From: a bacterium
Lineage (GTDB): Bacteria; Bacteroidota; Bacteroidia; NS11-12g; UBA9320
DNA: 64,000 nt
Assembly: GCA_018223105.1 (NCBI GenBank)
Contig: JAAEYY010000001.1
Span: 214,544-278,543, forward strand
Direction of reading: 5' to 3'
Made by a program: the position numbers and the translations under genes. Below are positions 4,808 to 35,107 of the stretch, in pieces (positions within the stretch are counted from its first letter, which is position 1; the number at the start of each line of letters is the position of its first letter). The notes beneath the pieces were generated by a model, which saw only the letters and a program-made list of their open reading frames with translations, had not been told where the DNA came from and made no database searches.

Positions 4808-5590
4808 ATGACGGATATACAACAAGCAGCAGAACGATTATGGCAAGCTTCGAAAAGCAAGCAGGTTTGTGAACCTATTCGAGATCTTATTGGTCCACAG
4901 AATATCGAAGATGCCTATAAAACTCAAGCAATAAACACTGAAAAGAGAATCGCCGAAGGTGCAAAAAAAGTGGGTTGTAAAATCGGCTTGACCTCCTTTG
5001 CAGTGCAGAAGCAACTTGGAGTAGATCAGCCGGATTATGGAATGCTATTTCAAGATATGCAAATCAACCCGGGCGAAACCATTGCTTGGAACGATCTTAT
5101 CCAAGGCAAAGCTGAAGCGGAAATTGCTTTTGTTATGAAATCAGGAATTGAAGGTGAGATAAATGCGGATTCTTTCAAAGCAGCCATCGATTACGCCTCC
5201 GTTTCCATTGAAATTGTAGGTAGCAGAGTTCGCGATTGGGATATCAAAATTGCAGATACCATTGCCGACAATGCTTCGGCGAGTCATTTTGTGTTAGGAA
5301 ATGAAAAGGTTGATGCAGCCAATTTGGATTTGGTCAATTGTACAATGCAGCTCAAGGTGAATGGAGAAATTGCTTCAGAAGGTAAAGGAGAGGCTTGTAT
5401 GGGTTCACCGCTCAATGCCGCTGTTTGGTTAGCGAAGACCATGGCGGATTTAGGTGCACCTTTATCTAAAGGCGATATCATACTCACCGGAGCTCTTGGC
5501 CCAATGGTTGCCTTGAAGCCCGGAGATCAGGTTTCCGCTAAAATTGAAGGTTTAGGCGAAGTGAATTTTAATGTAGGACAGCATGGATAA
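4808..5590 (+). CDS. 2-keto-4-pentenoate hydratase family protein (MhpD/BphH-like)
   Basis: 260 aa with [36 protein letters not shown]. Its stop overlaps the mhpF start. Confidence 0.75.
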
Positions 5591-6515
5591 AGTTAAAGTA
5601 GCAATTATTGGTTCTGGAAATATCGGCACGGACCTCATGATTAAAATCTTGAGAACTTCAGATGTGCTCGAAATGTCGGTCATGGTAGGAATTGATCCAG
5701 AATCCGACGGACTTGCAAGAGCCAAAAGAATGGGAGTAGCCACTACTCATGAAGGAATAGACGGTTTGATCAAAATGCCGGAATGGAAGGACATTGAAAT
5801 AGTATTTGATGCTACTTCGGCAAAAGCTCATCAATACAACTATTCTAAGATTCAGGAGTTTCCGGATAAAAAAGTAATTGATTTAACGCCTGCGGCGATA
5901 GGCCCTTACCTCATTCCACCTGTGAACATGGATAGAAACCTCGATGTTCCCAACGTAAACATGGTGACCTGTGGAGGTCAGGCTACCATCCCTATGGTGG
6001 CGGCAGTGAGCAGAGTTGCGAAGGTTCATTACGGCGAGATTGTAGCTTCCATAGCCAGTAAATCTGCCGGTCCGGGTACCCGTGCTAATATTGACGAGTT
6101 CACCGAAACTACGGCGGAAGCTATTGAAAAAGTAGGTGGAGCTACAAAAGGCAAAGCCATCATCATTCTAAACCCCGCAGAGCCACCATTGGTGATGCGC
6201 GATACGGTATTTACTCTTAGCGAAAACGCAGATCAAGATGCTATCCGAGAAAGCGTAGATGCGATGGTGAAGGAAGTCCAGGAGTATGTTCCAGGCTACA
6301 AACTTCACCAAGAAGTTCAATTCGAAGAAATCCCAGAAGATCAACCCGTCTTCATAGATGGCGTCGGCCACGTAAGCGGCCTCAAAACGATGATTCTCCT
6401 TCAAGTCATTGGCGCAGGCCATTACCTCCCGGAATACGCTGGTAATTTGGATATTATGACATCGGCAGCGAAGGCAACGGGAGAGAGAATTGTAAAGACT
6501 AGGTCTTTACAATAA
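5583..6515 (+). CDS. mhpF: acetaldehyde dehydrogenase (acetylating), MhpF/DmpF/BphJ type
   Basis: 310 aa. The N-terminal Rossmann motif [13 protein letters not shown] and overall length are typical of acylating acetaldehyde dehydrogenases. Confidence 0.85.
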
Positions 6516-6528
6516 ATTTCAAATATCA

Positions 6529-6626
6529 AGCCTGTCTGCCGACAGGCAGGCACCTACCCTTCTCCGCCGGCTGGCGGATTCGGATAGCGAGGGCCATCCT
6601 TCGCTGAAGCTACGGTTGACGTAGGC
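6529..6626. repeat. GC-rich palindromic repeat element (REP/MITE-like), copy 1
   Basis: Consecutive hairpins: cctgtctgccgacagg; ccgccggctggcgg; agcgagggccatccttcgct. Related copies occur at 6848, 7075-7193 and 11508. Confidence 0.6.
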
Positions 6627-6847
6627 AAATACCAAGGAAGTTCCAAATATCAAATTACCTCCCTACTCTTCATTTCGGGCGGCAGGCAAAATCCAGAAAA
6701 GATCCAATATTCAATTTTCAATAACCAAGTATCCCAACTTAGTGAGATACATTCGTCGTTGAAAACGCATTTGAGTGTCATTCTAATTTTTTGATCAGAA
6801 ATCAAGCAAAGAAATTGTGCGATGGGTGGAGCTAAGCAATCCTCGAA

Positions 6848-6866
6848 TCCGCCGGCTGGCGGATGG
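6848..6866. repeat. palindromic repeat ccgccggctggcgg, copy 2
   Basis: Same palindrome as at 6566 and 11508. Confidence 0.5.
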
Positions 6867-7070
6867 CTTGGGTTGCGGGGCGATTTCGAAGCGCTAGATT
6901 TCTTCAAAAAAGTAGTAAGACTTGACCTTTTGCTTCTTTTGTGTCAAGACAAAAGAAGGGAAGGTTTTGTTACTTTTTAAAAAGTAAGACTAGGGCTGAA
7001 TAGCTTGATTTTCTTCGAACAAATGAAAGAGGGAAGGCAGCATAATATTGTGAAAGACTTCCAGCCAGTG

Positions 7071-7193
7071 GGCTGGCAGGCCTGCCAGCCGAAGCTTTAG
7101 CGTAGGGTGGTTTGCTTCCTTTTTGAGCCCAAAAGGAAGTGTTTTTATTATCCCCTTGTCTGCCGACAGGCAGGCCTAACGGGTGACTAATCG
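7071..7193. repeat. GC-rich palindromic repeat elements (gccagtgggctggcaggcctgccagc; cttgtctgccgacaggcaggcctaacgggtgacta)
   Basis: The second element repeats the motif at 6531 and shares cgggtgacta with 11545. Confidence 0.6.
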
Positions 7194-7493
7194 CTTTATC
7201 AAAAAAGTAAGAAGGAAGAAGCTTGGATTTTAGGGCACCTCAGTTTAAGGGCTAGTTGGCCTGTTGAGAGACTGCAAGCTTTGGGATTTAAAAAGGATAG
7301 TAAGAAAAACATTTATTATTAAAAATTTTTGCTTGAAAGCATAGTTAGAACTGATTTTATTAAACATTTATAAAAAGAAACCAGGTCTATCGTAATGTTT
7401 CATGATTAGTCTAAGAAGCGGTAAGTTTGCATTTGAGTTAAATTGCATTGAATTGCCAGTTGGAAACTGGTAAATTCCAAATAGATTATTCAA

Positions 7494-8519
7494 ATGAAAC
7501 TTTACATTCAAGACGTAACATTACGTGACGGCATGCACGCCATCCGTCATCAATACTCAAAAGAGCAAATAAGAGAAATTGCAATTGCTTTGGATAATGC
7601 CAAAGTAGATGCAATAGAAGTAGCTCACGGTGATGGCCTTGCCGGATCTAGTTTTAACTATGGTTTCGGGGCGCATACAGATTGGGCTTGGCTCGAAGGT
7701 TTAGCGGAAGAACTAAATCATGCCGTATTGACCACCTTACTTCTTCCCGGTATCGGAACAATTGAAGATCTAAAAAAAGCCTATGATCTAGGCGTAAGAT
7801 CTGTTCGCATCGCGACCCATTGCACAGAAGCAGATATCTCGGCCCAGCATATAGAAGCAGCTAAGAAATTAGGAATGGATGTCGGTGGATTTTTAATGAT
7901 GGCTCACATGAATGAGCCTAAGAAATTGGCCGAGCAAGCAAAACTAATGGAAAGCTATGGCGCTGATTGCGTTTATGTTACAGATAGTGCGGGTGCATTA
8001 TTGATGGACGACGTAGCAGGCCGTATGAAAGCATTTAAAGATGTTCTCGATTCTAAAACGGAGATTGGAATTCATTGTCACCATAACCTAGGCCTCGGTG
8101 TCGCAAACACCATCGTCGCTATGCAGCATGGAGCTCATAGACTAGATGCATCGCTAGCCGGGATGGGAGCAGGGGCAGGTAATTGTCCTCTAGAAGTATT
8201 GATTGCCGTATTGAACAGAATGGGGCAAGATCACAATTCAGATCTTTATGCATTAATGGATGCAGCAGATGATCTGATCAGACCGCTTCAAACTAGACCA
8301 GTTAGAGTAGATAGAGAAACATTATCTCTCGGCTATGCCGGTGTGTATTCCTCTTTCCTGTTACATTCTGAAAGAGCAGCAGACCGTTATGGCCTCGATA
8401 CTCGAAGTATTCTTGAAGAGCTAGGCAAACGCAAAATGGTAGGCGGACAAGAGGATATGATTGTGGATGTCGCTTTGGATATGAAACGAAACAAGAATTC
8501 TAGCTCAGATTCCAATTAA
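7494..8519 (+). CDS. mhpE: 4-hydroxy-2-oxovalerate aldolase (MhpE/DmpG/BphI type)
   Basis: 341 aa. DmpG-like TIM-barrel N-terminus ([18 protein letters not shown]). Confidence 0.85.
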
Positions 8520-9942
8520 GGTATTTAATCTGAATATATTCTTCAATCCCGTATTTCGAACCTTCTCTGCCAAATCCACTGTGTTTCACGCCGCCAAAAG
8601 GGGCGGTCACATTCGATATTAATCCGGTATTAATTCCTACCATCCCGGACTCTAGATTTTCAGCAATATGCCAAATTCGTTTGGGGTCGGTGCCGAAGAA
8701 ATAAGCCGCCAAACCAAATTCAGTGTCATTTGCCAATTTAAGCATTTCTTCATCCGTGCTGAACTTGTAAATCGCTGCAAGCGGACCAAATATCTCTTCT
8801 TTCGCAATATCCATGTCATGAGTGACGTCTGCTATCATTCCTGCCGACATCAAAAGACCTTCTTTTACTTCAGGTTCGATGATGACACGGGCACCTTTGG
8901 ATTTAGCTTCTTCAAAGAGTCGAGTAACCTTGTCAACGGCAGCCTGATTAATTAGTGGTCCAATCTTGCTGTCGCTTTCTAACCCACTTCCCGCCTTAAT
9001 CTTCTTGATTCTGTTTTCAAGCTTCTCGATGAAAGTATCGTAGATGCTCTCGTGAACGTAAATACGATTCGCGCATACACAGGTTTGTCCTGCATTGCGG
9101 AATTTAGAAGCAATGGTGCCTGAAACTGCTTTGTCAATATCAGCATCATCGAGAATAATCATTGGAGCATTTCCTCCCAATTCCATAGAAAGTTTTTTAA
9201 GGGTCGGGCTGCATTGCTCCATCAATATCTTACCGACTTTGGTAGACCCTGTGAAGGAGAGTTTTTTAATTCGATCATCGGCACAAAGTACTTTTCCTAC
9301 CGTGGAAGAATCGCTTGTGGTAATTACATTGAGCACACCATTTGGAATTCCCGCTTGCTCCGCCAAATAAGCCATAGCTAATGCAGAAAGGGGAGTGTCT
9401 TCCGCAGGTTTGATTACCGCTGTGCATCCTGCAGCAAGAGCCGGAGCTATTTTTCTGGCGATCATGGCCATTGGGAAGTTCCATGGAGTAATTGAAGCAA
9501 CCGGACCCACAGCTTGCTTGATCACGATAATGCGTTCATCCTGAGATTTACCCGGAATAGTGTCGCCATAGATTCTCCTAGCTTCTTCAGCAAACCATTT
9601 AATATAAGAAGCGCCATAGGCGATTTCTGCCCTTGCTTCTGCGAGAATTTTTCCTTGTTCTGTCGTGAGAATAGTGGCTAGATCTTCTTGGTTTTTCATG
9701 ATCAAATCATACCATGCATATAGTATATCTGATCGCTTTTCTGCCGTTTGACTTTTCCAAGATTCAAAGCTCTTATGAGCCGCCTCAATAGCCTCCAGTG
9801 TTTCAGATTCCCCACAATCAGGAACTGAAATGATCAATTCCTGATTATAAGGATTTATAACTTCGAAACTCTTTGCAGATTCTCGCCATTGGCCGTTTAT
9901 CAAACATGAGTTTTTGAGTAGATTTTTGTTTTTTATATCCAT
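8500..9942 (-). CDS. NAD(P)+-dependent aldehyde dehydrogenase (succinate-semialdehyde / hydroxymuconic-semialdehyde dehydrogenase-like)
   Basis: 480 aa. ALDH superfamily: catalytic Cys context [12 protein letters not shown], Glu motif ELGGNAP, and SSADH-like N-terminus. Confidence 0.8.
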
Positions 9943-10087
9943 TAGAGCATTTCTAATTCAGTGAACCTTCACCAAAGGTGATAAAAAAACAACACTTATA
10001 AACACCTTTAGTTTAGTCTAAAGTAGATCGTGTTGTAAAACACAAATGATCATCACAACGTTTACAAGCGAACCTGCCACTAGGACT

Positions 10088-10323
10088 GCTCGGAGCACAC
10101 CTATAGTAAACCTCGGAGCATGTTTGGAGTACACCTAAAATACACCTCTGAGCCTGCTCGGAGTATACCTACAGTGCCTCGGAGTTTATTCGGAGCACAT
10201 TTATCATGTACCTCTGAGCCTACTCGGAGTACACCTACAGTGTACCTCAGAGTTTATTCAGAGTACACTTAAAGTGTACCTCCTGAGTTTATTCAGAGTA
10301 CACCTACAGTGTACCTCTGAGCT
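10088..10323. repeat. tandem minisatellite: about 34-bp hairpin unit x about 7-8 (68-bp super-unit)
   Basis: Units ctc[t/a]gag(cctgctc|tttattc)ggagtacacctacagtgtac repeat head to tail. Each holds the palindrome gtacac-ctaca-gtgtac. The last unit supplies the final four codons (RGTL) and stop of hppD. Confidence 0.8.
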
Positions 10324-11437
10324 CTTGCTCACGCTCAATCGCTTCAAACAAGGCTTTGAAGTTTCCTTTACCAAAAGAGGTCGCACCTTTTCTTTGGATG
10401 ATTTCGAAGAAAAGGGTAGGACGTGGTTCAATAGGTTTAGTAAAGATCTGAAGTAGATACCCTTCATCATCACGATCCACCAATATACCCAATTCTTTTA
10501 GAGGTTTAATATCCTCTTCAATTTCCCCAACTCTTTCGTGAAGTACGTCGTAATAGGTATCCGGAACTCTTAAAAACTCAACTCCTCTGTTCTGAAGCTG
10601 GGTCACCGTTTCAATGATATTGTCGGTAGCAACTGCAATGTGCTGTACTCCCGGACCTTCATAGAAATCCAAATACTCTTCGATTTGAGATTTTTTCTTA
10701 CCATCTGCAGGTTCGTTAATTGGGAACTTGATTCTACCATTTCCATTACTCATCACCTTACTCATAAGAGCTGTGTAATCAGTAGAAATGTCTTTGTCAT
10801 CAAATGAAATGATTTGAGCAAAGCCCATCACTTGCTTGTAGAAATTCACCCATTCATTCATTTTGCCTAGTTCTACATTTCCCACCATGTGGTCTATGTA
10901 TTTTAAGCCAATTTTTGAAGGGTTATAGCTGCTTTCCCACTTCTTAAAGCCGGGAAGGAACAAGCCATTGTAATTATCTCGCTCAATGAACATATGAACA
11001 GTCTCACCGTAGGTGTAAATACCTGCTTTAACTACTGTTCCCGAATCATCTTTTAATTCATGCGGTTCGCAGAAAGATTTTGCTCCTCTGCTGATGGCTT
11101 CTTCGTATGCTTTTCTTGCATCAGGAACCCAAAGCGCTACTGTTTTAACGCCATCGCCGTGCTTGTCGATGTGTGCTCCAATTGAAGTTCCACTCTTCAA
11201 TGGAGAGGTAAGCACAAGTCTAATTTTATCTTGAACTACCACATATGATTCAGTTTCTTTATTGCCGGTAGCTAAACCGGAGTATGCTAATGACTGAAAT
11301 CCAAATGCTGTTTTGTAAAAGTGTGCAGCCTGATTTGCATTACCTACGTAAAGCTCCACGTAGTCTGTACCTTGTATCGGCATGAAATCATCTGCCTCGT
11401 CGTATAATTTTGGAATTGATAATGTATCGCTATTCAT
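10304..11437 (-). CDS. hppD: 4-hydroxyphenylpyruvate dioxygenase
   Basis: 377 aa. Two VOC/glyoxalase-like barrels; conserved HPPD stretches GTDYVELYVGNANQAAHFY and FFEIIQRKGATSFGKGNFKALFEAIEREQ. Confidence 0.85.
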   Translation of the reverse strand: MNSDTLSIPKLYDEADDFMPIQGTDYVELYVGNANQAAHFYKTAFGFQSLAYSGLATGNKETESYVVVQDKIRLVLTSPLKSGTSIGAHIDKHGDGVKTVALWVPDARKAYEEAISRGAKSFCEPHELKDDSGTVVKAGIYTYGETVHMFIERDNYNGLFLPGFKKWESSYNPSKIGLKYIDHMVGNVELGKMNEWVNFYKQVMGFAQIISFDDKDISTDYTALMSKVMSNGNGRIKFPINEPADGKKKSQIEEYLDFYEGPGVQHIAVATDNIIETVTQLQNRGVEFLRVPDTYYDVLHERVGEIEEDIKPLKELGILVDRDDEGYLLQIFTKPIEPRPTLFFEIIQRKGATSFGKGNFKALFEAIEREQELRGTL

Positions 11438-11507
11438 GATCTTCTCTTTAATGCGTCAAAGGTAGAAATTTACATTTATTTTGACTCCCAAGCAAAGAAT
11501 AATCAAT

Positions 11508-11562
11508 CCGCCAGCTGGCGGAGAAGGAAGATTTGTTATCCCCCTATCGGGTGACTATTTGC
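11508..11562. repeat. palindromic repeat element (tccgccagctggcgga; cccctatcgggtgactatttgc)
   Basis: Perfect 16-bp palindrome plus a cgggtgacta motif shared with the 7150-7193 element. Confidence 0.5.
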
Positions 11563-31286: not shown

Positions 31287-32714
31287 ATGAATTATATAGT
31301 AGTAGTATTATCCATTGCGGTCCTCTTTATTTTTATTCTCATTATATCGGTGCTTCGCCGATATAAAAGATGTCCATCGGATCGTGTTCTCGTAGTATAT
31401 GGTAAAGTAGGAAAAGGAGTAGATAAATTAAGCAGATCTGCTAAGTGTATTCACGGTGGTGCTGCATTTATCTGGCCTGTAATTCAGGATTATGCTTTCT
31501 TGGATTTAACACCGCATTCCATTGAAGTGAATCTAACCAATGCACTTTCAAGGCAAAATATTCGGGTAGATGTGCCGTCTAGGTTTACAATTGGTATTTC
31601 TACCGAACCTGGTGTGATGGAAAATGCTGCAGAGCGTCTATTAGGTCAGAGCAAAGAGCAAATTCACAATTTGGCATTGGATATCATCTTCGGTCAGCTT
31701 CGTTTAGTAGTTGCCACTATGGATATTGAGGAGATCAACAATAACAGAGATAAATTCTTGAGCAATGTAAGTTCGAATGTGGAAGCAGAGCTTAAGAAAG
31801 TGGGCTTGAAACTCATCAACGTAAACTTAACTGATATTAGAGATGAGTCGGGCTACATTGAAGCTCTAGGTAAGGAAGCTGCAGCAAAAGCAATTAACGA
31901 TGCAAAGAAATCTGTGGCAGAGAAAAACAGAGACGGTGCCATTGGAGAGGCAATCGCCTTGCAAGATCAAAGAGTTAAAGTTTCTGAAGCAGATGCAACT
32001 GCAGTAGAAGGGGAGAACTTAGCAAAAATTACGATTGCAAACTCAGATGCATTGCGTAGACAAAGAGAGGCAGAGGCTGAAAAGATGGCAATTGCCTCTG
32101 AGAAGGTTCAGGCGGCAAGAGCATTGGAAGAAGCATATGTTGCGGAGAAAGAAGCTGAAGAGTCTAGAGCGAATCGAGAGAAAGCAACAAAGTATGCCGA
32201 TATCGTAATACCGGCACAAATAGATAAAGAGAAAGTAGAAATTAATGCAGAAGCCGAAGCAGAGCAGAAAAGAAGAGTAGCTAAAGGTGAGGCCGATGCT
32301 ATCTTCTTGAAATTAGATGCAGAAGCGCGAGGTGTTATGGAAGTATTAACAAAACAGGCAAAAGGTTTCAAAGACCTTGTAGCAGCTTCCGGTAATGATC
32401 CTAAAAATGCTGCAATGCTCTTGATTGCAGATAAATTGAATGAGCTAGTTGAACTTCAAGCAAAAGCGATCAGCAATATCAAGATCGATAAAGTTACGGT
32501 TTGGGATGGCGGCAATAATGCTGATGGCAAAAACGCCACTTCTAATTTCTTAAGTGGAATGTATAAATCTGTTCCACCTTTAGAAGATATCTTCAACATG
32601 GCCGGACTTCAACTACCTGAATACCTCAGAGGCAAATCTTTGGAAGAAGCTCGAGATATTATGGAAGATAAAACTTCAGATGGCTCTGAAAACACAAATG
32701 AAGAAAAATCCTAG
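31287..32714 (+). CDS. flotillin / SPFH (band-7) domain protein
   Basis: 475 aa. N-terminal TM, SPFH domain, long Ala/Glu-rich coiled coil. Confidence 0.8.
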   Translation: MNYIVVVLSIAVLFIFILIISVLRRYKRCPSDRVLVVYGKVGKGVDKLSRSAKCIHGGAAFIWPVIQDYAFLDLTPHSIEVNLTNALSRQNIRVDVPSRFTIGISTEPGVMENAAERLLGQSKEQIHNLALDIIFGQLRLVVATMDIEEINNNRDKFLSNVSSNVEAELKKVGLKLINVNLTDIRDESGYIEALGKEAAAKAINDAKKSVAEKNRDGAIGEAIALQDQRVKVSEADATAVEGENLAKITIANSDALRRQREAEAEKMAIASEKVQAARALEEAYVAEKEAEESRANREKATKYADIVIPAQIDKEKVEINAEAEAEQKRRVAKGEADAIFLKLDAEARGVMEVLTKQAKGFKDLVAASGNDPKNAAMLLIADKLNELVELQAKAISNIKIDKVTVWDGGNNADGKNATSNFLSGMYKSVPPLEDIFNMAGLQLPEYLRGKSLEEARDIMEDKTSDGSENTNEEKS

Positions 32715-34111
32715 TACTTCGTGATTTTGTGAATCTCAGTTTTTCCTTTTGAATTGATGTGAATGAAGTATAGTCCTTTTGCAAAGCTCGAAAGGTCCAT
32801 CTCATGTTGGATAGCACTGAATTTGTGCTCTGCAACAAATGCTCCATTGACGTCATACACAATTACGGTTGCATCCTGAACCATTGGAAGTTCTATAAAC
32901 AAATGGCCTTGAGTTGGATTAGGATAAGCGAGATACGGAGCATCGGTATCGGTATTGATTGCGATTACCTTACTGTATCTTATATCTCCATTTTTAAAGG
33001 TTTGTTTAATGCGGAAATATGCCGGTCCGGGCTCAATTTGGAAATGATTAGCACTGTATGATTGAATACGAATACTGTTTCCTGAACTTCTTCTCTCCGC
33101 TAAAGGAACGAAAATCTTACCGTCTTCACTTACTTCTAAAGTGTAATAATCAAGACCAATTTCTTCTCTTGAAATCCACTGTAGTTCATATGCACCTTGC
33201 GCTGTCTGCACTGCTGTAAAATGCATGATATCTACTGAGTATTGTTCAATTTCTTCGTCGCCTAACTTGAACGCTTCTCCACGACCGTAGAAAGAATTAC
33301 TTTCAAATCCACCGAAAAATCCTTCAAGCCCTGATTGCTTATCAAATTCAGTTTTCAAGACCCAGCTTTTAGATGTTCCACCACCAAAAAGCGCAAGAAC
33401 TTCTTTTGTGCTTGAGCCATTCACTGAAACCTCAAAAGGGTAAACTCCTGCAAAAAGTTCAATATCGAATTTTCCATTCTCATCTGTATTTCCAAGATTT
33501 ACTTCTTTTCCGGGGCCCATTTTTGCCATCACTTTCACATTAGACAATCCGGCGCCATCTGCTTTCTCAACATGAATGCCATAGAATGCTGTTTGCAGGA
33601 TTAGGGTACCGCCATTTGCGCAAGCACTTACAGTTTGTGTTCCAACAGCATTAGAGTGGTCTTTTACTGCTTTAAATCGATAAGTACCGGGAAATAGTTC
33701 AGTTTTTACTCTACCGTTTTGCCCCGTGGTTCCTATGGATTGAAAATGCTCACCTTCATCATTATAAAAAACTTCTACATCAGACTGATTCTTCCCGAAT
33801 GAGTTTACAATTCTTACCTGGAAGTTTGCTGTTTTAAAACTAACTTTTCCGGGGGCACTGCTGTGAACAATTTGAAATGATTTGTTTTTACTTGCTTTAA
33901 AGTCCCAGTCTCCTTCAGCAAGGTCGGCAGAAAATAGACCATCACTGTTGGTTTGACCCAATAGTTTATAGGCTTCATTGTTCTGACTCGCTTCAATGGA
34001 AATGTTAGAAAGTGGTTCACCTTCTGAATTAAGAACTTCAAATTTTACGGGGGCGGCTTCGGCAAATAAGCCGAATAAAGTCAACAGACTTAATGCTAAT
34101 ACAGGTCTCAT
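32711..34111 (-). CDS. T9SS C-terminal-sorting-domain secreted protein with carboxypeptidase-regulatory-like repeats
   Basis: 466 aa. Signal peptide, repeated Ig-like/CarbopepD_reg-like segments, and C-terminal ...GLYFIHINSKGKTEIHKITKY, typical of a T9SS CTD. Confidence 0.65.
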   Translation of the reverse strand: MRPVLALSLLTLFGLFAEAAPVKFEVLNSEGEPLSNISIEASQNNEAYKLLGQTNSDGLFSADLAEGDWDFKASKNKSFQIVHSSAPGKVSFKTANFQVRIVNSFGKNQSDVEVFYNDEGEHFQSIGTTGQNGRVKTELFPGTYRFKAVKDHSNAVGTQTVSACANGGTLILQTAFYGIHVEKADGAGLSNVKVMAKMGPGKEVNLGNTDENGKFDIELFAGVYPFEVSVNGSSTKEVLALFGGGTSKSWVLKTEFDKQSGLEGFFGGFESNSFYGRGEAFKLGDEEIEQYSVDIMHFTAVQTAQGAYELQWISREEIGLDYYTLEVSEDGKIFVPLAERRSSGNSIRIQSYSANHFQIEPGPAYFRIKQTFKNGDIRYSKVIAINTDTDAPYLAYPNPTQGHLFIELPMVQDATVIVYDVNGAFVAEHKFSAIQHEMDLSSFAKGLYFIHINSKGKTEIHKITKY

Positions 34112-34164
34112 AGGTCGATAGTAAGGTTTAATTAAAGTTTAGGTCGCATTAACAACATGCGCTG

Positions 34165-34207
34165 CGAATGCCTGCGCAAGCTACGAATGCCTGCGCAAGC
34201 TACGAAT
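34165..34207. repeat. 19-bp direct tandem repeat x2.4 (cgaatgcctgcgcaagcta)
   Basis: Exact duplicate visible in the intergenic sequence. Confidence 0.6.
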
Positions 34208-34249: not shown

Positions 34250-35107
34250 TTAATCGTAAGAAATTTGCTTTTTCCAGCGCTTATGGCTCCAAAGGTACTG
34301 TCCCGGTTGAGCTTTTATATTCTGTTCCAACAAGCTGGCGTATTGTTTCACAACAGATTCGTCTTGCTTTATCGGAATGTATTCAACTTCGTAATATCCG
34401 CGCTTACTTTGGGTCATATGAGCATAGACCAATACTTGATCTAGCTTAGAAGCCATTCGGTCTGCACCTACGAGGAATTCGGTTTCAATACCGAAGAAAT
34501 CAGCAGATTCTATGCTGCTGTTCATTTTTGGTCTCTGATCTCCTATAACGTAGGTTAAGGTTGGAATTTGCTTGTCTGCATAGCCTTTTAGAACTTTAAA
34601 ACCATTAGCAGATTCTACACAGCGATTCCCAAACTTCTGTCTTAAAAGCAACATCAATTCATTAAAATAAGAGCTGCTTTGTTTCTGATAAAAGCTTAAA
34701 AAGCGATGATCTATATGTAAAGGTAAAAATGCCATCCACTCCCAGTTGGCAATGTGAGCTGCATAGACAATGACACTTTTCTTTTCGAGGTAATATTGTT
34801 TTAGTAATTCCGGGTTTATAATATTTACTCGTTTTTTAGCTTCTTTGGGGTTCATTCCCAGGATTTTAACTGCCTCAAGAAAGATGTCAGTAAAATGAGT
34901 TTGAAACTCTTTTCGGATCTTGGTTCTTTGCTTTTTACTCATTTGCGGAAAAGCAATTCCGAGGTTTTTCTCAATTACCTTTTTTCTGTATCCTATGAGA
35001 TTGAATATAATAAAAGATAATCCGGAAGAAATAAGGTGCAAGACCTTAACCGGTAAGAAAGACAGGAGATAAAAAGGAAGATATTTTAGTTTCCGGAGGA
35101 TAAGCAA
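34250..35107 (-). CDS. lipid A biosynthesis lauroyl/myristoyl acyltransferase family (LpxL/HtrB-like)
   Basis: 285 aa. N-terminal TM and the HIANWEW acyltransferase motif. Confidence 0.7.
   Translation of the reverse strand: MLILRKLKYLPFYLLSFLPVKVLHLISSGLSFIIFNLIGYRKKVIEKNLGIAFPQMSKKQRTKIRKEFQTHFTDIFLEAVKILGMNPKEAKKRVNIINPELLKQYYLEKKSVIVYAAHIANWEWMAFLPLHIDHRFLSFYQKQSSSYFNELMLLLRQKFGNRCVESANGFKVLKGYADKQIPTLTYVIGDQRPKMNSSIESADFFGIETEFLVGADRMASKLDQVLVYAHMTQSKRGYYEVEYIPIKQDESVVKQYASLLEQNIKAQPGQYLWSHKRWKKQISYD

What the first reader, a model, noticed from the sequence alone, without database searches (positions are those of the whole stretch)
10088..10323. Hairpin-forming 34-bp minisatellite fused to the 3' end of hppD
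About 7-8 head-to-tail copies of a 34-bp unit are present. Two variants alternate, giving a 68-bp super-unit. Each unit contains the palindrome gtacac-ctaca-gtgtac. The array runs directly into hppD, so the last four codons (RGTL) and the TAG stop are encoded by the terminal repeat unit. The array also fills the whole spacer to the next minus-strand gene, the aldehyde dehydrogenase. It is not a CRISPR array because there are no unique spacers. It could be a slipped-strand variable locus, a transcription attenuator or RNA-stability element between hppD and the dehydrogenase, or a novel mobile repeat.
Basis: seen in the sequence. Interest (0 to 1): 0.55.

Follow-up and report, generated by a model that had tools for sequence, protein, structure and literature searches.

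The report
Home-grown hairpin minisatellite behind hppD
Seven head-to-tail copies of a 34-base hairpin-forming unit lie between two catabolic genes of an uncultured Bacteroidota bacterium, and because the unit is a copy of the upstream gene's own last five codons, stop codon and trailing hairpin arm, it is a locally born, decaying minisatellite and not a mobile, CRISPR-like or otherwise new kind of element.

Summary
The array is real. It has 7 tandem units of 32-35 nt at 10085-10321, with a 66-68-nt super-period. Two details in the finding are wrong. Only the four hppD-proximal units still fold into a hairpin. The array covers 219 of the 361 spacer bases, leaving 142 unique bases before the aldehyde dehydrogenase (ALDH) gene. 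Read on the gene strand, each unit starts with CTC AGA GGT ACA CTG TAG, which is L-R-G-T-L-stop. All 120 best HppD homologues end in (L/I/V/R)RGT(L/V), three with one extra residue, and none of six relatives examined has an array. The unit was therefore copied from the gene end, not fused to it. Identity to the genuine gene end falls steadily with distance (91 to 71%), and so does hairpin stability (-14 to about -5 kcal/mol). No other copy exists in the 64-kb window. Searches of genome, metagenome and viral collections gave only single chance matches. The only relative with hppD next to ALDH has stop and start overlapping (TAATG). Best reading: serial slippage duplication of a hairpin that spans the stop codon, now mostly decaying. 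At most, the 3-4 surviving hairpins buffer hppD mRNA or uncouple the ALDH gene. [quoted passage not shown] Interest is low to moderate.

The parts
10085..10321 (-). Whole tandem array: 7 units of 32-35 nt, all in direct orientation. Consensus on the gene strand is CTCAGAGGTACACTGTAGGTGTACTCCGAATAAA.
   Evidence: TRF, the repeat finder, unit alignment.
10288..10321 (-). Unit U7 (proximal, the genuine gene end): CTC AGA GGT ACA CTG TAG + GTGTACTCTGAATAAA. It forms a 12-bp hairpin with one bulged G and the stop codon in the loop (-14.0 kcal/mol).
10304..10321 (-). Overlap of the array with the hppD coding sequence: codons L-R-G-T-L and the TAG stop.
   Evidence: This C-terminus is conserved in 120 of 120 homologues. 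Relative L011 encodes RGTL as AGAGGTACACTC, matching 11 of 12 nt.
10253..10287 (-). Unit U6 (A-type, 35 nt, 91% identical to U7). Hairpin -12.1 kcal/mol. The fossil codons read LRRYTL.
10219..10252 (-). Unit U5 (B-type, tail CCGAGTAGG, 85% identical to U7). Hairpin -11.5 kcal/mol. The fossil codons read L*GTL*.
10185..10218 (-). Unit U4 (A-type, 79% identical to U7). The hairpin is kept through one C-G to U-A double change (-7.8 kcal/mol).
10085..10184 (-). Units U3, U2 and U1 (71-74% identical to U7). The hairpins have decayed (-5.9, -4.7 and -6.0 kcal/mol), which is no better than shuffled sequence.
9943..10084 (-). Non-repeat, AT-rich remainder of the hppD-ALDH spacer (142 nt). It has no exact Bacteroidetes -7 box. 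One 7-of-8 match, CACCTTTG, lies at 9973-9980, 30 nt before the ALDH ATG.
10304..11437 (-). hppD, 4-hydroxyphenylpyruvate dioxygenase, 377 aa, full length.
   Evidence: TIGR01263, 461.6 bits against a cut-off of 277. (most of the 120 best homologues listed are also 377 aa).
8500..9942 (-). Downstream NAD-dependent succinate-semialdehyde-type aldehyde dehydrogenase (ALDH), 480 aa. The start codon is supported by N-terminal similarity to the L003 orthologue.
11457..11464 (-). Bacteroidetes-type -7 promoter box TACCTTTG, 20 nt upstream of the hppD ATG. It is the likely start of the transcript that runs into the array.
   Evidence: This is a consensus match only.

Best explanation
The array is a single-locus bacterial minisatellite that arose in place.

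Step 1 (shown). The 5' half of the unit is ordinary, conserved hppD coding sequence: the codons LRGTL plus the stop.

Step 2 (inferred). A 12-nt inverted copy of those codons lies just after the stop, GTGTAC-TCTGA against TCAGAGGTACAC. It makes a hairpin that holds the stop codon in its loop.

Step 3 (inferred from the pattern). This 34-nt segment, coding tail plus hairpin arm plus AATAAA linker, was duplicated in tandem by replication slippage or unequal exchange. It diverged into two variants (A and B), and the 68-nt A-B dimer was then duplicated again. The youngest or most homogenised copies lie next to the gene.

Step 4 (shown). Copies further from the gene have progressively lost both sequence identity and folding ability, so copy number and the distal hairpins are not under detectable selection.

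Consequence (inferred, not shown). hppD and the ALDH gene overlap as TAATG in the only relative that has the two genes adjacent. Here they are separated by a 361-nt, strongly structured intercistronic RNA. Its 3-4 intact hairpins lack a U-run, so they would not terminate transcription efficiently. They could slow 3'-to-5' exonucleases, raising hppD mRNA relative to ALDH mRNA, and they abolish translational coupling. I regard this as a side-effect and not the reason the array exists.
For: - The array is real and non-random.
- The unit head equals the LRGTL-stop codons.
- All 120 best homologues end in the RGT(L/V) motif, 116 of them in exactly RGTL, and most are the same 377-aa length.
- Relative L011 uses almost the same codons, AGAGGTACACTC.
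- None of six relatives' downstream regions has a tandem array.
- In the syntenic relative L003 the stop and start overlap.
- Identity to U7 is 91, 85, 79, 74, 74, 71% with distance. Only 2 of 720 orderings are this monotonic.
- Hairpin energy is -14.0, -12.1, -11.5, -7.8, -5.9, -4.7, -6.0 kcal/mol (Spearman 0.89, p = 0.007).
- A/B alternation and the period-66 array are seen.
- No other copy occurs in the window or in three public collections.
- There is no Rfam family match and no hairpin-plus-T-run terminator.
- There is no exact TAnnTTTG box in the spacer, while hppD has one.
- The whole spacer RNA folds at -128 kcal/mol, z = -4.4.
- The longest exact repeat in the array is 22 nt, so a short-read assembler could resolve it.
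Against: - The evidence rests on one genome, a metagenome-assembled one, with no close relative. Neither the timing of the duplications nor copy-number variation could be observed.
- U4 keeps its stem through one compensatory C-G to U-A change. In total, 87.8% of stem cells can still pair when G-U is allowed. This leaves room for some selection on RNA structure.
- The mechanism of the first duplication, and any flanking microhomology, cannot be reconstructed.
- The origin of the 142-nt non-repeat spacer is unexplained.
- Co-transcription of hppD and the ALDH gene is inferred only from the absence of consensus signals. A 7-of-8 promoter-like box lies 30 nt before the ALDH gene.
Confidence: 0.68

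Rival explanations
1. Selected cis-acting RNA module. The row of hairpins right after the hppD stop codon is maintained because it sets the hppD:ALDH expression ratio. It could act as a 3' exonuclease barrier or mRNA stabiliser, as a partial terminator or attenuator, or as a translational uncoupler. Copy number would act as a rheostat.
For: - The four proximal units fold well, z about -3 to -4 for three of them.
- One compensatory pair change is seen in U4.
- The spacer RNA is far more structured than shuffled sequence.
- No clear internal promoter or terminator is present, so the array is probably inside a bicistronic transcript.
- Intercistronic REP hairpins are known to do this in E. coli (own knowledge: Newbury et al. 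1987; REP and mRNA turnover are also mentioned in PMC3479197 and PMC2777011).
Against: - The three distal units have lost the fold.
- Pair conservation does not exceed the column-shuffle control: 257 of 500 shuffles reach the observed value.
- Changes that keep a G-U wobble favour the sense strand only 7 to 4, which is not significant.
- No relative has anything similar.
- No hairpin is followed by a U-run.
Confidence: 0.2
2. Member of a dispersed or mobile family of small palindromic repeats (REP/BIME-, MITE- or MIRU-like) that inserted at the end of hppD.
For: The unit is a short imperfect palindrome in an intergenic position. The same genome does carry another, GC-rich palindrome in several intergenic sites.
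Against: - There is no second copy in 64 kb even at 3 mismatches.
- Only single, non-tandem chance matches were found in the genome, metagenome and viral collections. One is inside a coding region, and none has a second unit nearby.
- An inserted element would have to encode the invariant LRGTL-stop in frame by coincidence.
- All units are in direct orientation, with no terminal inverted repeats or target duplications.
Confidence: 0.03
3. Array of protein-binding sites (operators or iterons). The 6-N5-6 palindrome GTACAC-N5-GTGTAC, repeated every 34 bp, recruits a dimeric regulator that controls the ALDH gene or the cluster.
For: The 17-bp palindrome has a shape typical of operators. It is present three times, at 34-35-bp spacing, upstream of the ALDH gene.
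Against: - Half of every palindrome is dictated by coding sequence in the founding unit.
- Only 3 of 7 units keep the palindrome.
- It occurs nowhere else in the window, including at the hppD promoter.
- No regulator gene is adjacent; the neighbours are PfkB-family kinase and RecJ genes.
- The sites lie 320-380 bp from the ALDH start.
Confidence: 0.04
4. Assembly artefact of a metagenome-assembled genome: a mis-joined or inflated repeat.
For: The source is a MAG labelled only '[bacterium]'. Tandem repeats are a known weak point of short-read assembly, as seen in the curation described for Borg tandem repeats (PMC9879509).
Against: - The units differ by 9-29%, and the longest exact repeat is 22 nt. 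Assembly k-mers span unique sequence.
- The ordered decay gradient and the A/B alternation are not what collapse or inflation produces.
- Both flanking genes are intact and in frame.
Confidence: 0.03

Closest known systems
MIRU-VNTR loci of the Mycobacterium tuberculosis complex (for example ETR-F/VNTR3239 between rnc and fpg1)
   Same: Both are direct tandem repeats of tens of bases that fill an intergenic gap inside a co-oriented gene pair. The gap is large in one lineage: 358 bp in M. tuberculosis against 1-54 bp in other mycobacteria (PMC2734929). Here it is 361 nt against a 1-nt overlap in L003. [quoted passage not shown] They are reported to overlap the stop or start codons of flanking genes (own knowledge: Supply et al. 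1997).
   Different: MIRUs are a dispersed family, with 41 loci in H37Rv and units of 40-100 bp (PMC2734929). This unit is 34 nt, occurs at a single locus, is unrelated in sequence, lies in a Bacteroidota genome, overlaps only the upstream stop codon, and is visibly derived from the neighbouring gene's own codons. Copy-number polymorphism was not testable here.
REP/BIME elements of enterobacteria and pseudomonads
   Same: Both are imperfect palindromes of about 35 nt located between genes of one operon, and both form stable RNA stem-loops. REPs influence mRNA turnover (PMC3479197 abstract; PMC2777011). Own knowledge: the malE-malF REPs stabilise upstream mRNA (Newbury 1987), and REPs within 15 nt of a stop codon stall terminating ribosomes (Liang, Rudd and Deutscher 2015).
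   Different: REPs occur in hundreds of copies per genome. Within BIMEs they sit in alternating orientation, and they are mobilised by RAYT transposases. Here there is one locus, all units are direct, and there is no dispersal.
Locally seeded tandem repeats of Borg elements
   Same: In both cases the repeat units are unique to each locus and appear to be seeded from local sequence. [quoted passage not shown]
   Different: Borg repeats are perfect, A-rich, very recent and pervasive throughout the genome. This array is old and degenerate (71-91% identity), is not A-rich, and is the only sizeable array in 64 kb.
Intrinsic (Rho-independent) terminators downstream of hppD in relatives
   Same: Both are stem-loops directly after the hppD stop. 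Relatives L004 and L006 have a GC-rich hairpin plus T-run at the same place.
   Different: The hairpins here lack a T-run, being followed by AATAAA or AGTAGG. They span the stop codon and are present in multiple copies.

Membership tests
Bacterial minisatellite / VNTR | Head-to-tail direct copies of a 10-100-bp unit at one locus | tested here: met
   7.0 copies, period 34, at 10087-10322. Units are in register at spacings of 32-35.
Bacterial minisatellite / VNTR | Copy number varies between strains | not testable with these tools
   No conspecific sequence is available. The best HppD relative is 85% identical and the best ALDH relative 62%. No positional record exists for the source contig.
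MIRU (mycobacterial interspersed repetitive units) | The same unit is dispersed at many loci of the genome | tested here: not met
   No other copy in the 64-kb window. Only chance single matches in public collections. The rest of the source genome could not be searched.
MIRU (mycobacterial interspersed repetitive units) | Unit of 40-100 bp lying between genes of an operon and overlapping their stop and start codons | tested here: inconclusive
   The position between co-oriented genes and the overlap with the upstream stop are met. The unit is only 34 nt, and the downstream start lies 142 nt beyond the array.
REP/BIME | Imperfect palindromic unit of about 20-40 nt able to form a stem-loop | tested here: met
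   U7-U4 fold at -14.0 to -7.8 kcal/mol.
REP/BIME | High copy number across the genome, and alternating orientation within clusters | tested here: not met
   Single locus, with all seven units direct.
REP/BIME | Associated RAYT (IS200/IS605-like) transposase | not tested
   The window's ORFs were not screened for Y1 transposases.
CRISPR array | Direct repeats separated by unique spacers of similar length | tested here: not met
   The units abut one another with no unique spacers.
Intrinsic terminator | GC-rich stem-loop followed by a run of T/U | tested here: not met
   0 terminator-like sites in 9700-10500 on either strand. The sequence following the hairpins is AATAAA or AGTAGG.
Known structured RNA families (Rfam 15) | Match to a curated covariance model at the gathering score | tested here: not met
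   Only one tRNA in the window. In 9850-10400 only microRNA and snoRNA noise at E > 1.
MITE / Correia-like miniature mobile element | Terminal inverted repeats, target-site duplication, multiple genomic copies | tested here: not met
   None of these were seen. The unit head is the host gene's own conserved codons.

The most novel reading that the evidence does not exclude
The array is a selected 'hairpin ladder' built from a gene's own stop-codon region. In this lineage an ancestrally overlapping, translationally coupled hppD-ALDH pair was pulled apart by repeated copying of the hppD tail. The number of intact hairpins now tunes the ratio of the two enzymes through mRNA 3'-end protection or partial termination. 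That would be an example of a new intercistronic regulatory spacer born from coding sequence, with copy number acting as an evolvable dial.
Probability: 0.1. Interest if true: 0.5.

Novelty: new member of a known kind. Interest (0 to 1): 0.22.

Why it matters
The locus has modest value as a clean, datable example of how a bacterial minisatellite is born. The founding unit can be identified with confidence, because half of it is an invariant protein C-terminus plus stop codon. The fossil copies (LRGTL*, LRRYTL, L*GTL*, LRGT**, ...) record the order of decay. It also shows one way an overlapping gene pair in an operon can acquire a long structured intercistronic spacer. For annotation it is a caution: a hairpin repeat that touches a gene end need not be a mobile element or a regulatory RNA. 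It opens no long-standing question and is not a new kind of system.

Tried and rejected
1. Dispersed repeat. I searched the core AGTACACNTANAGTGTACCT in genome contigs. The two hits are chance: one lies inside an ORF of a Bacteroidetes MAG and one is a lone palindrome in a Chloroflexi MAG. The 22-nt core in metagenome contigs gave only that same contig. A 17-specified-base version in viral contigs gave three single hits, none with a second unit nearby. Rejected.
2. Known RNA family. Rfam at the gathering and E-value thresholds gave nothing.
3. Terminator or promoter. The sigma-70 and terminator consensus scan gave one promoter-like hit, fewer than in shuffles, and no terminator. The Bacteroidetes -7 box TAnnTTTG is absent from the spacer.
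4. Strand-specific RNA selection. G-U-preserving changes favour the sense strand over the antisense strand 7 to 4, which is not significant. The covariation counts do not exceed the shuffles.
5. Strain comparison. An exact look-up of HppD and ALDH found no positional record. The cluster look-up identified the source proteins (MBR9859343.1 and MBR9859342.1). Their only cluster-mate, a 48-aa protein (P0242), is unrelated, and that look-up was wasted.
6. More syntenic comparators through ALDH homologues. L017 and L018 carry the ALDH gene without hppD and are uninformative.
7. A link between the array and the GC-rich palindromes elsewhere in the cluster. They share no sequence, and those palindromes are absent from all fetched loci.
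8. CRISPR. Rejected on anatomy, because there are no spacers.

Full report
**1. What is there**

Tandem Repeats Finder reports an array at 10087-10322 with period 34, 7.0 copies and 73% matches. It also reports the same stretch with period 66, 3.4 copies and 79% matches. The repeat finder puts seven copies in register at spacings of 34, 34, 32, 34, 34 and 35 nt. The 22-nt core GAGTACACCTACAGTGTACCTC occurs three times at up to 3 mismatches, always inside the array. None of 100 dinucleotide-preserving shuffles gave a match.

Both flanking genes lie on the minus strand:
- 10304..11437 is a full-length 4-hydroxyphenylpyruvate dioxygenase (TIGR01263, 461.6 bits, cut-off 277).
- 8500..9942 is a succinate-semialdehyde-type aldehyde dehydrogenase, called ALDH below.

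On the gene strand the units are U7 10288-10321, U6 10253-10287, U5 10219-10252, U4 10185-10218, U3 10153-10184, U2 10119-10152 and U1 10085-10118.

**2. Corrections to the observation**

The exact palindrome GTACAC-N5-GTGTAC is found, even at 2 mismatches, in only three units. Folded one at a time as RNA, the units give -14.0, -12.1, -11.5, -7.8, -5.9, -4.7 and -6.0 kcal/mol from U7 to U1. The last three are indistinguishable from shuffled sequence.

The array does not fill the spacer. The spacer is 9943-10303 (361 nt), and 9943-10084 (142 nt, about 34% G+C) is unique sequence.

The overlap with hppD is five codons plus the stop (18 nt), not four.

The two-variant alternation is real. A-type units have the head CTCAGAGG and the tail ...AATAAA. 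B-type units have the head CTC[C/T]GAGG and the tail ...GAG[C/T]AGG. B-type U5/U3/U1 are 79-85% alike and A-type U6/U4 are 80% alike, whereas most neighbouring units of different type are 59-77% alike.

**3. The key point: the unit is a copy of the gene's own end**

On the gene strand the proximal unit reads CTC AGA GGT ACA CTG TAG | GTGTACTCTGAATAAA, which is L-R-G-T-L-stop followed by 16 nt.

All 120 best HppD homologues (77-85% identical) end in (L/I/V/R)RGT(L/V). Of these, 116 end in exactly RGTL and three carry one extra residue. Most of the 120 are also 377 aa long. This C-terminus is therefore ancestral.

Relatives encode it with various synonymous codons. One of them, L011, uses AGAGGTACACTC, which matches the repeat head at 11 of 12 nt.

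The heads of the other units are fossil copies of these codons: LRRYTL, L*GTL*, LRGT**, LRGTVG, LRGVF* and LRGLL*. A foreign element that happened to supply the invariant residues and the stop in frame is not credible. The repeat grew out of the gene, not into it.

The 3' arm of the founding hairpin (GTGTAC-TCTGA) is an inverted copy of the coding arm (TCAGAG[G]TACAC). The hairpin is therefore also secondary to the coding sequence. It arose either under selection for a 3' stem-loop or through a template-switch event. This step is inference.

**4. History recorded in the array**

Identity to U7 falls monotonically with distance: 91, 85, 79, 74, 74 and 71%. Only 2 of 720 orderings are this monotonic. 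Hairpin stability falls in parallel (Spearman 0.89, p = 0.007). Dimers U6U5 and U4U3 are 83% alike, and the distal dimer U2U1 is 74-75% identical to each.

The simplest history has four stages:
1. A 34-nt duplication.
2. Divergence into A and B variants.
3. Duplication of the 68-nt dimer.
4. The most recent copying or homogenisation next to the gene.

The distal units are decaying freely.

**5. Is it anywhere else?**

It is not elsewhere in the window.
- A scan of 185,579 representative genomes with an 18-specified-base core found two stretches. One lies inside an ORF of a Bacteroidetes MAG. The other is a lone palindrome in a Chloroflexi MAG. Neither is tandem.
- The JGI metagenome scan returned only the first of those contigs again.
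- IMG/VR gave three single matches, none with a second unit nearby.
- Rfam has no matching family.

The window comes from an NCBI metagenome-assembled genome labelled only '[bacterium]' (HppD MBR9859343.1, ALDH MBR9859342.1, contig 297,169 nt). Homologue names place it in Bacteroidota, near Saprospiraceae, Lewinellaceae and Cytophagales.

Its nearest relative in the protein collection is a contig (L003) with 85% HppD and 62% ALDH identity. Strain-level comparison is therefore impossible with these data.

**6. Relatives**

L003 shares the gene order RecJ - PfkB-family kinase - HppD - ALDH. There the hppD stop and the ALDH start overlap as TAATG, with no spacer at all.

In L004, L006, L007 and L008, hppD is followed after 39-72 nt by a fumarylacetoacetate (FAA)-hydrolase-family gene. 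L004 and L006 show ordinary hairpin-plus-T-run terminators in that gap. L009 and L011 have other neighbours. TRF finds no array downstream of hppD in any of them, apart from a trivial 6/12-nt repeat in L009.

The 361-nt spacer and its array are therefore a derived, lineage-specific feature. Two further ALDH homologue loci (L017, L018) lack hppD and are uninformative.

**7. What it may do**

No hairpin is followed by a T-run, and the terminator scan finds none. The Bacteroidetes -7 box TAnnTTTG is present 20 nt upstream of hppD (TACCTTTG, 11457-11464) but absent from the spacer. The best match there is a 7-of-8 site, CACCTTTG, 30 nt before the ALDH ATG.

The likeliest transcript therefore runs from the hppD promoter through the array into the ALDH gene. 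This is inference from consensus matches only.

That intercistronic RNA is very structured: -128.1 kcal/mol for 401 nt, z = -4.4. It has many alternative inter-unit pairings (see also for the two strands and for DNA).

By analogy with intercistronic REP hairpins, the intact proximal hairpins could impede 3' exonucleases and raise hppD message relative to ALDH message. The spacer also necessarily abolishes the termination-reinitiation coupling that the TAATG overlap allows in L003.

I found no positive sign of selection for this:
- Pair conservation equals the column-shuffle expectation (257 of 500 shuffles reach it; one double change, in U4).
- Substitutions that preserve pairing through G-U favour the sense strand only 7 to 4.
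- Three of the seven units no longer fold.

My committed reading is a slippage-born, largely neutral minisatellite with at most a modest side-effect on mRNA stability or coupling.

**8. Comparison with known kinds**

The closest analogue is a MIRU-VNTR locus. The rnc-fpg1 spacer is 358 bp of direct repeats in M. tuberculosis and 1-54 bp in other mycobacteria (PMC2734929). That contrast parallels 361 nt against an overlap here.

The array nevertheless fails the MIRU and REP/BIME membership tests on dispersal, on unit size (MIRU) and on alternating orientation (BIME). It has no CRISPR spacers and no terminator U-run.

[quoted passage not shown] However, they are perfect, A-rich and genome-wide.

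The array is best filed as a new, single-locus member of the general class of bacterial minisatellites. It is unusual only in that its founding unit can be read off as the neighbouring gene's conserved C-terminal codons plus stop.

**9. Artefact check**

The longest exact repeat within the array is 22 nt and the units differ by 9-29%. Typical assembly k-mers would therefore resolve it. The ordered decay and the A/B alternation are not what mis-assembly produces. Read mapping is still needed for certainty.

**10. Verdict**

The 'fused' direction and the 'mobile repeat' option are wrong. A regulatory role is unproven. Interest is low to moderate (0.22). Novelty: new member of a known kind.

Noticed in passing
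window 6516-7493: A non-coding gap of about 980 nt separates the acetaldehyde dehydrogenase (5583..6515 +) and 4-hydroxy-2-oxovalerate aldolase (7494..8519 +) genes. In relatives L004, L006 and L007 these genes are only 2-15 nt apart. The gap contains GC-rich palindromes, each present twice: TGTCTGCCGACAGGCAGGC (6533 and 7157) and TCCGCCGGCTGGCGGAT (6563 and 6848). A further one, CCAGCCAGTGGGCTGGCAGGCCTGCCAGCC, lies near 7060-7090. There is no Rfam match.
   Followed up: partly
window 11507-11522 (also 6563-6579 and 6848-6864): A third copy of the GC-rich palindrome (CCTTCTCCGCCAGCTGGCGGATT) sits between the PfkB-family kinase gene and hppD. That makes three intergenic copies in 64 kb of an AT-rich genome. 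It looks like a small REP-like dispersed family, unrelated in sequence to the hppD array. It is absent from all 18 fetched loci. RAYT genes were not looked for.
   Followed up: partly
window 4808-9942 compared with L003: In L003 the genes run colinearly as HppD-ALDH-FAA hydrolase-acetaldehyde DH-aldolase. In the window the FAA hydrolase, acetaldehyde DH and aldolase genes are inverted onto the + strand. The aldolase gene converges on the ALDH gene, and their 3' ends overlap by 20 nt (8500-8519). This one catabolic cluster therefore carries an inversion and two abnormal spacers.
   Followed up: partly
window 34161-34207: A second, small intergenic tandem repeat between two minus-strand ORFs (34250..35107 and 32711..34111). 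The 19-nt unit ATTCGTAGCTTGCGCAGGC is present 2.5 times at 96% identity, about 43 nt after the upstream stop codon.
   Followed up: no
protein clustering (P0241/P0242): In the 90%-identity protein collection, the window's 377-aa HppD is filed in a cluster whose representative is an unrelated 48-aa protein (weak DUF3237 match, from GCA_024639905.1). This looks like a clustering glitch. It explains why HppD itself did not appear among its own search hits.
   Followed up: yes
window 10120-10272 (+) and 10258-10473 (-): The mechanical ORFs of 50 and 71 aa that run through the array are by-products of the repeat. Because the period of 34 is not a multiple of three, no frame carries a repeated peptide.
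   Followed up: no
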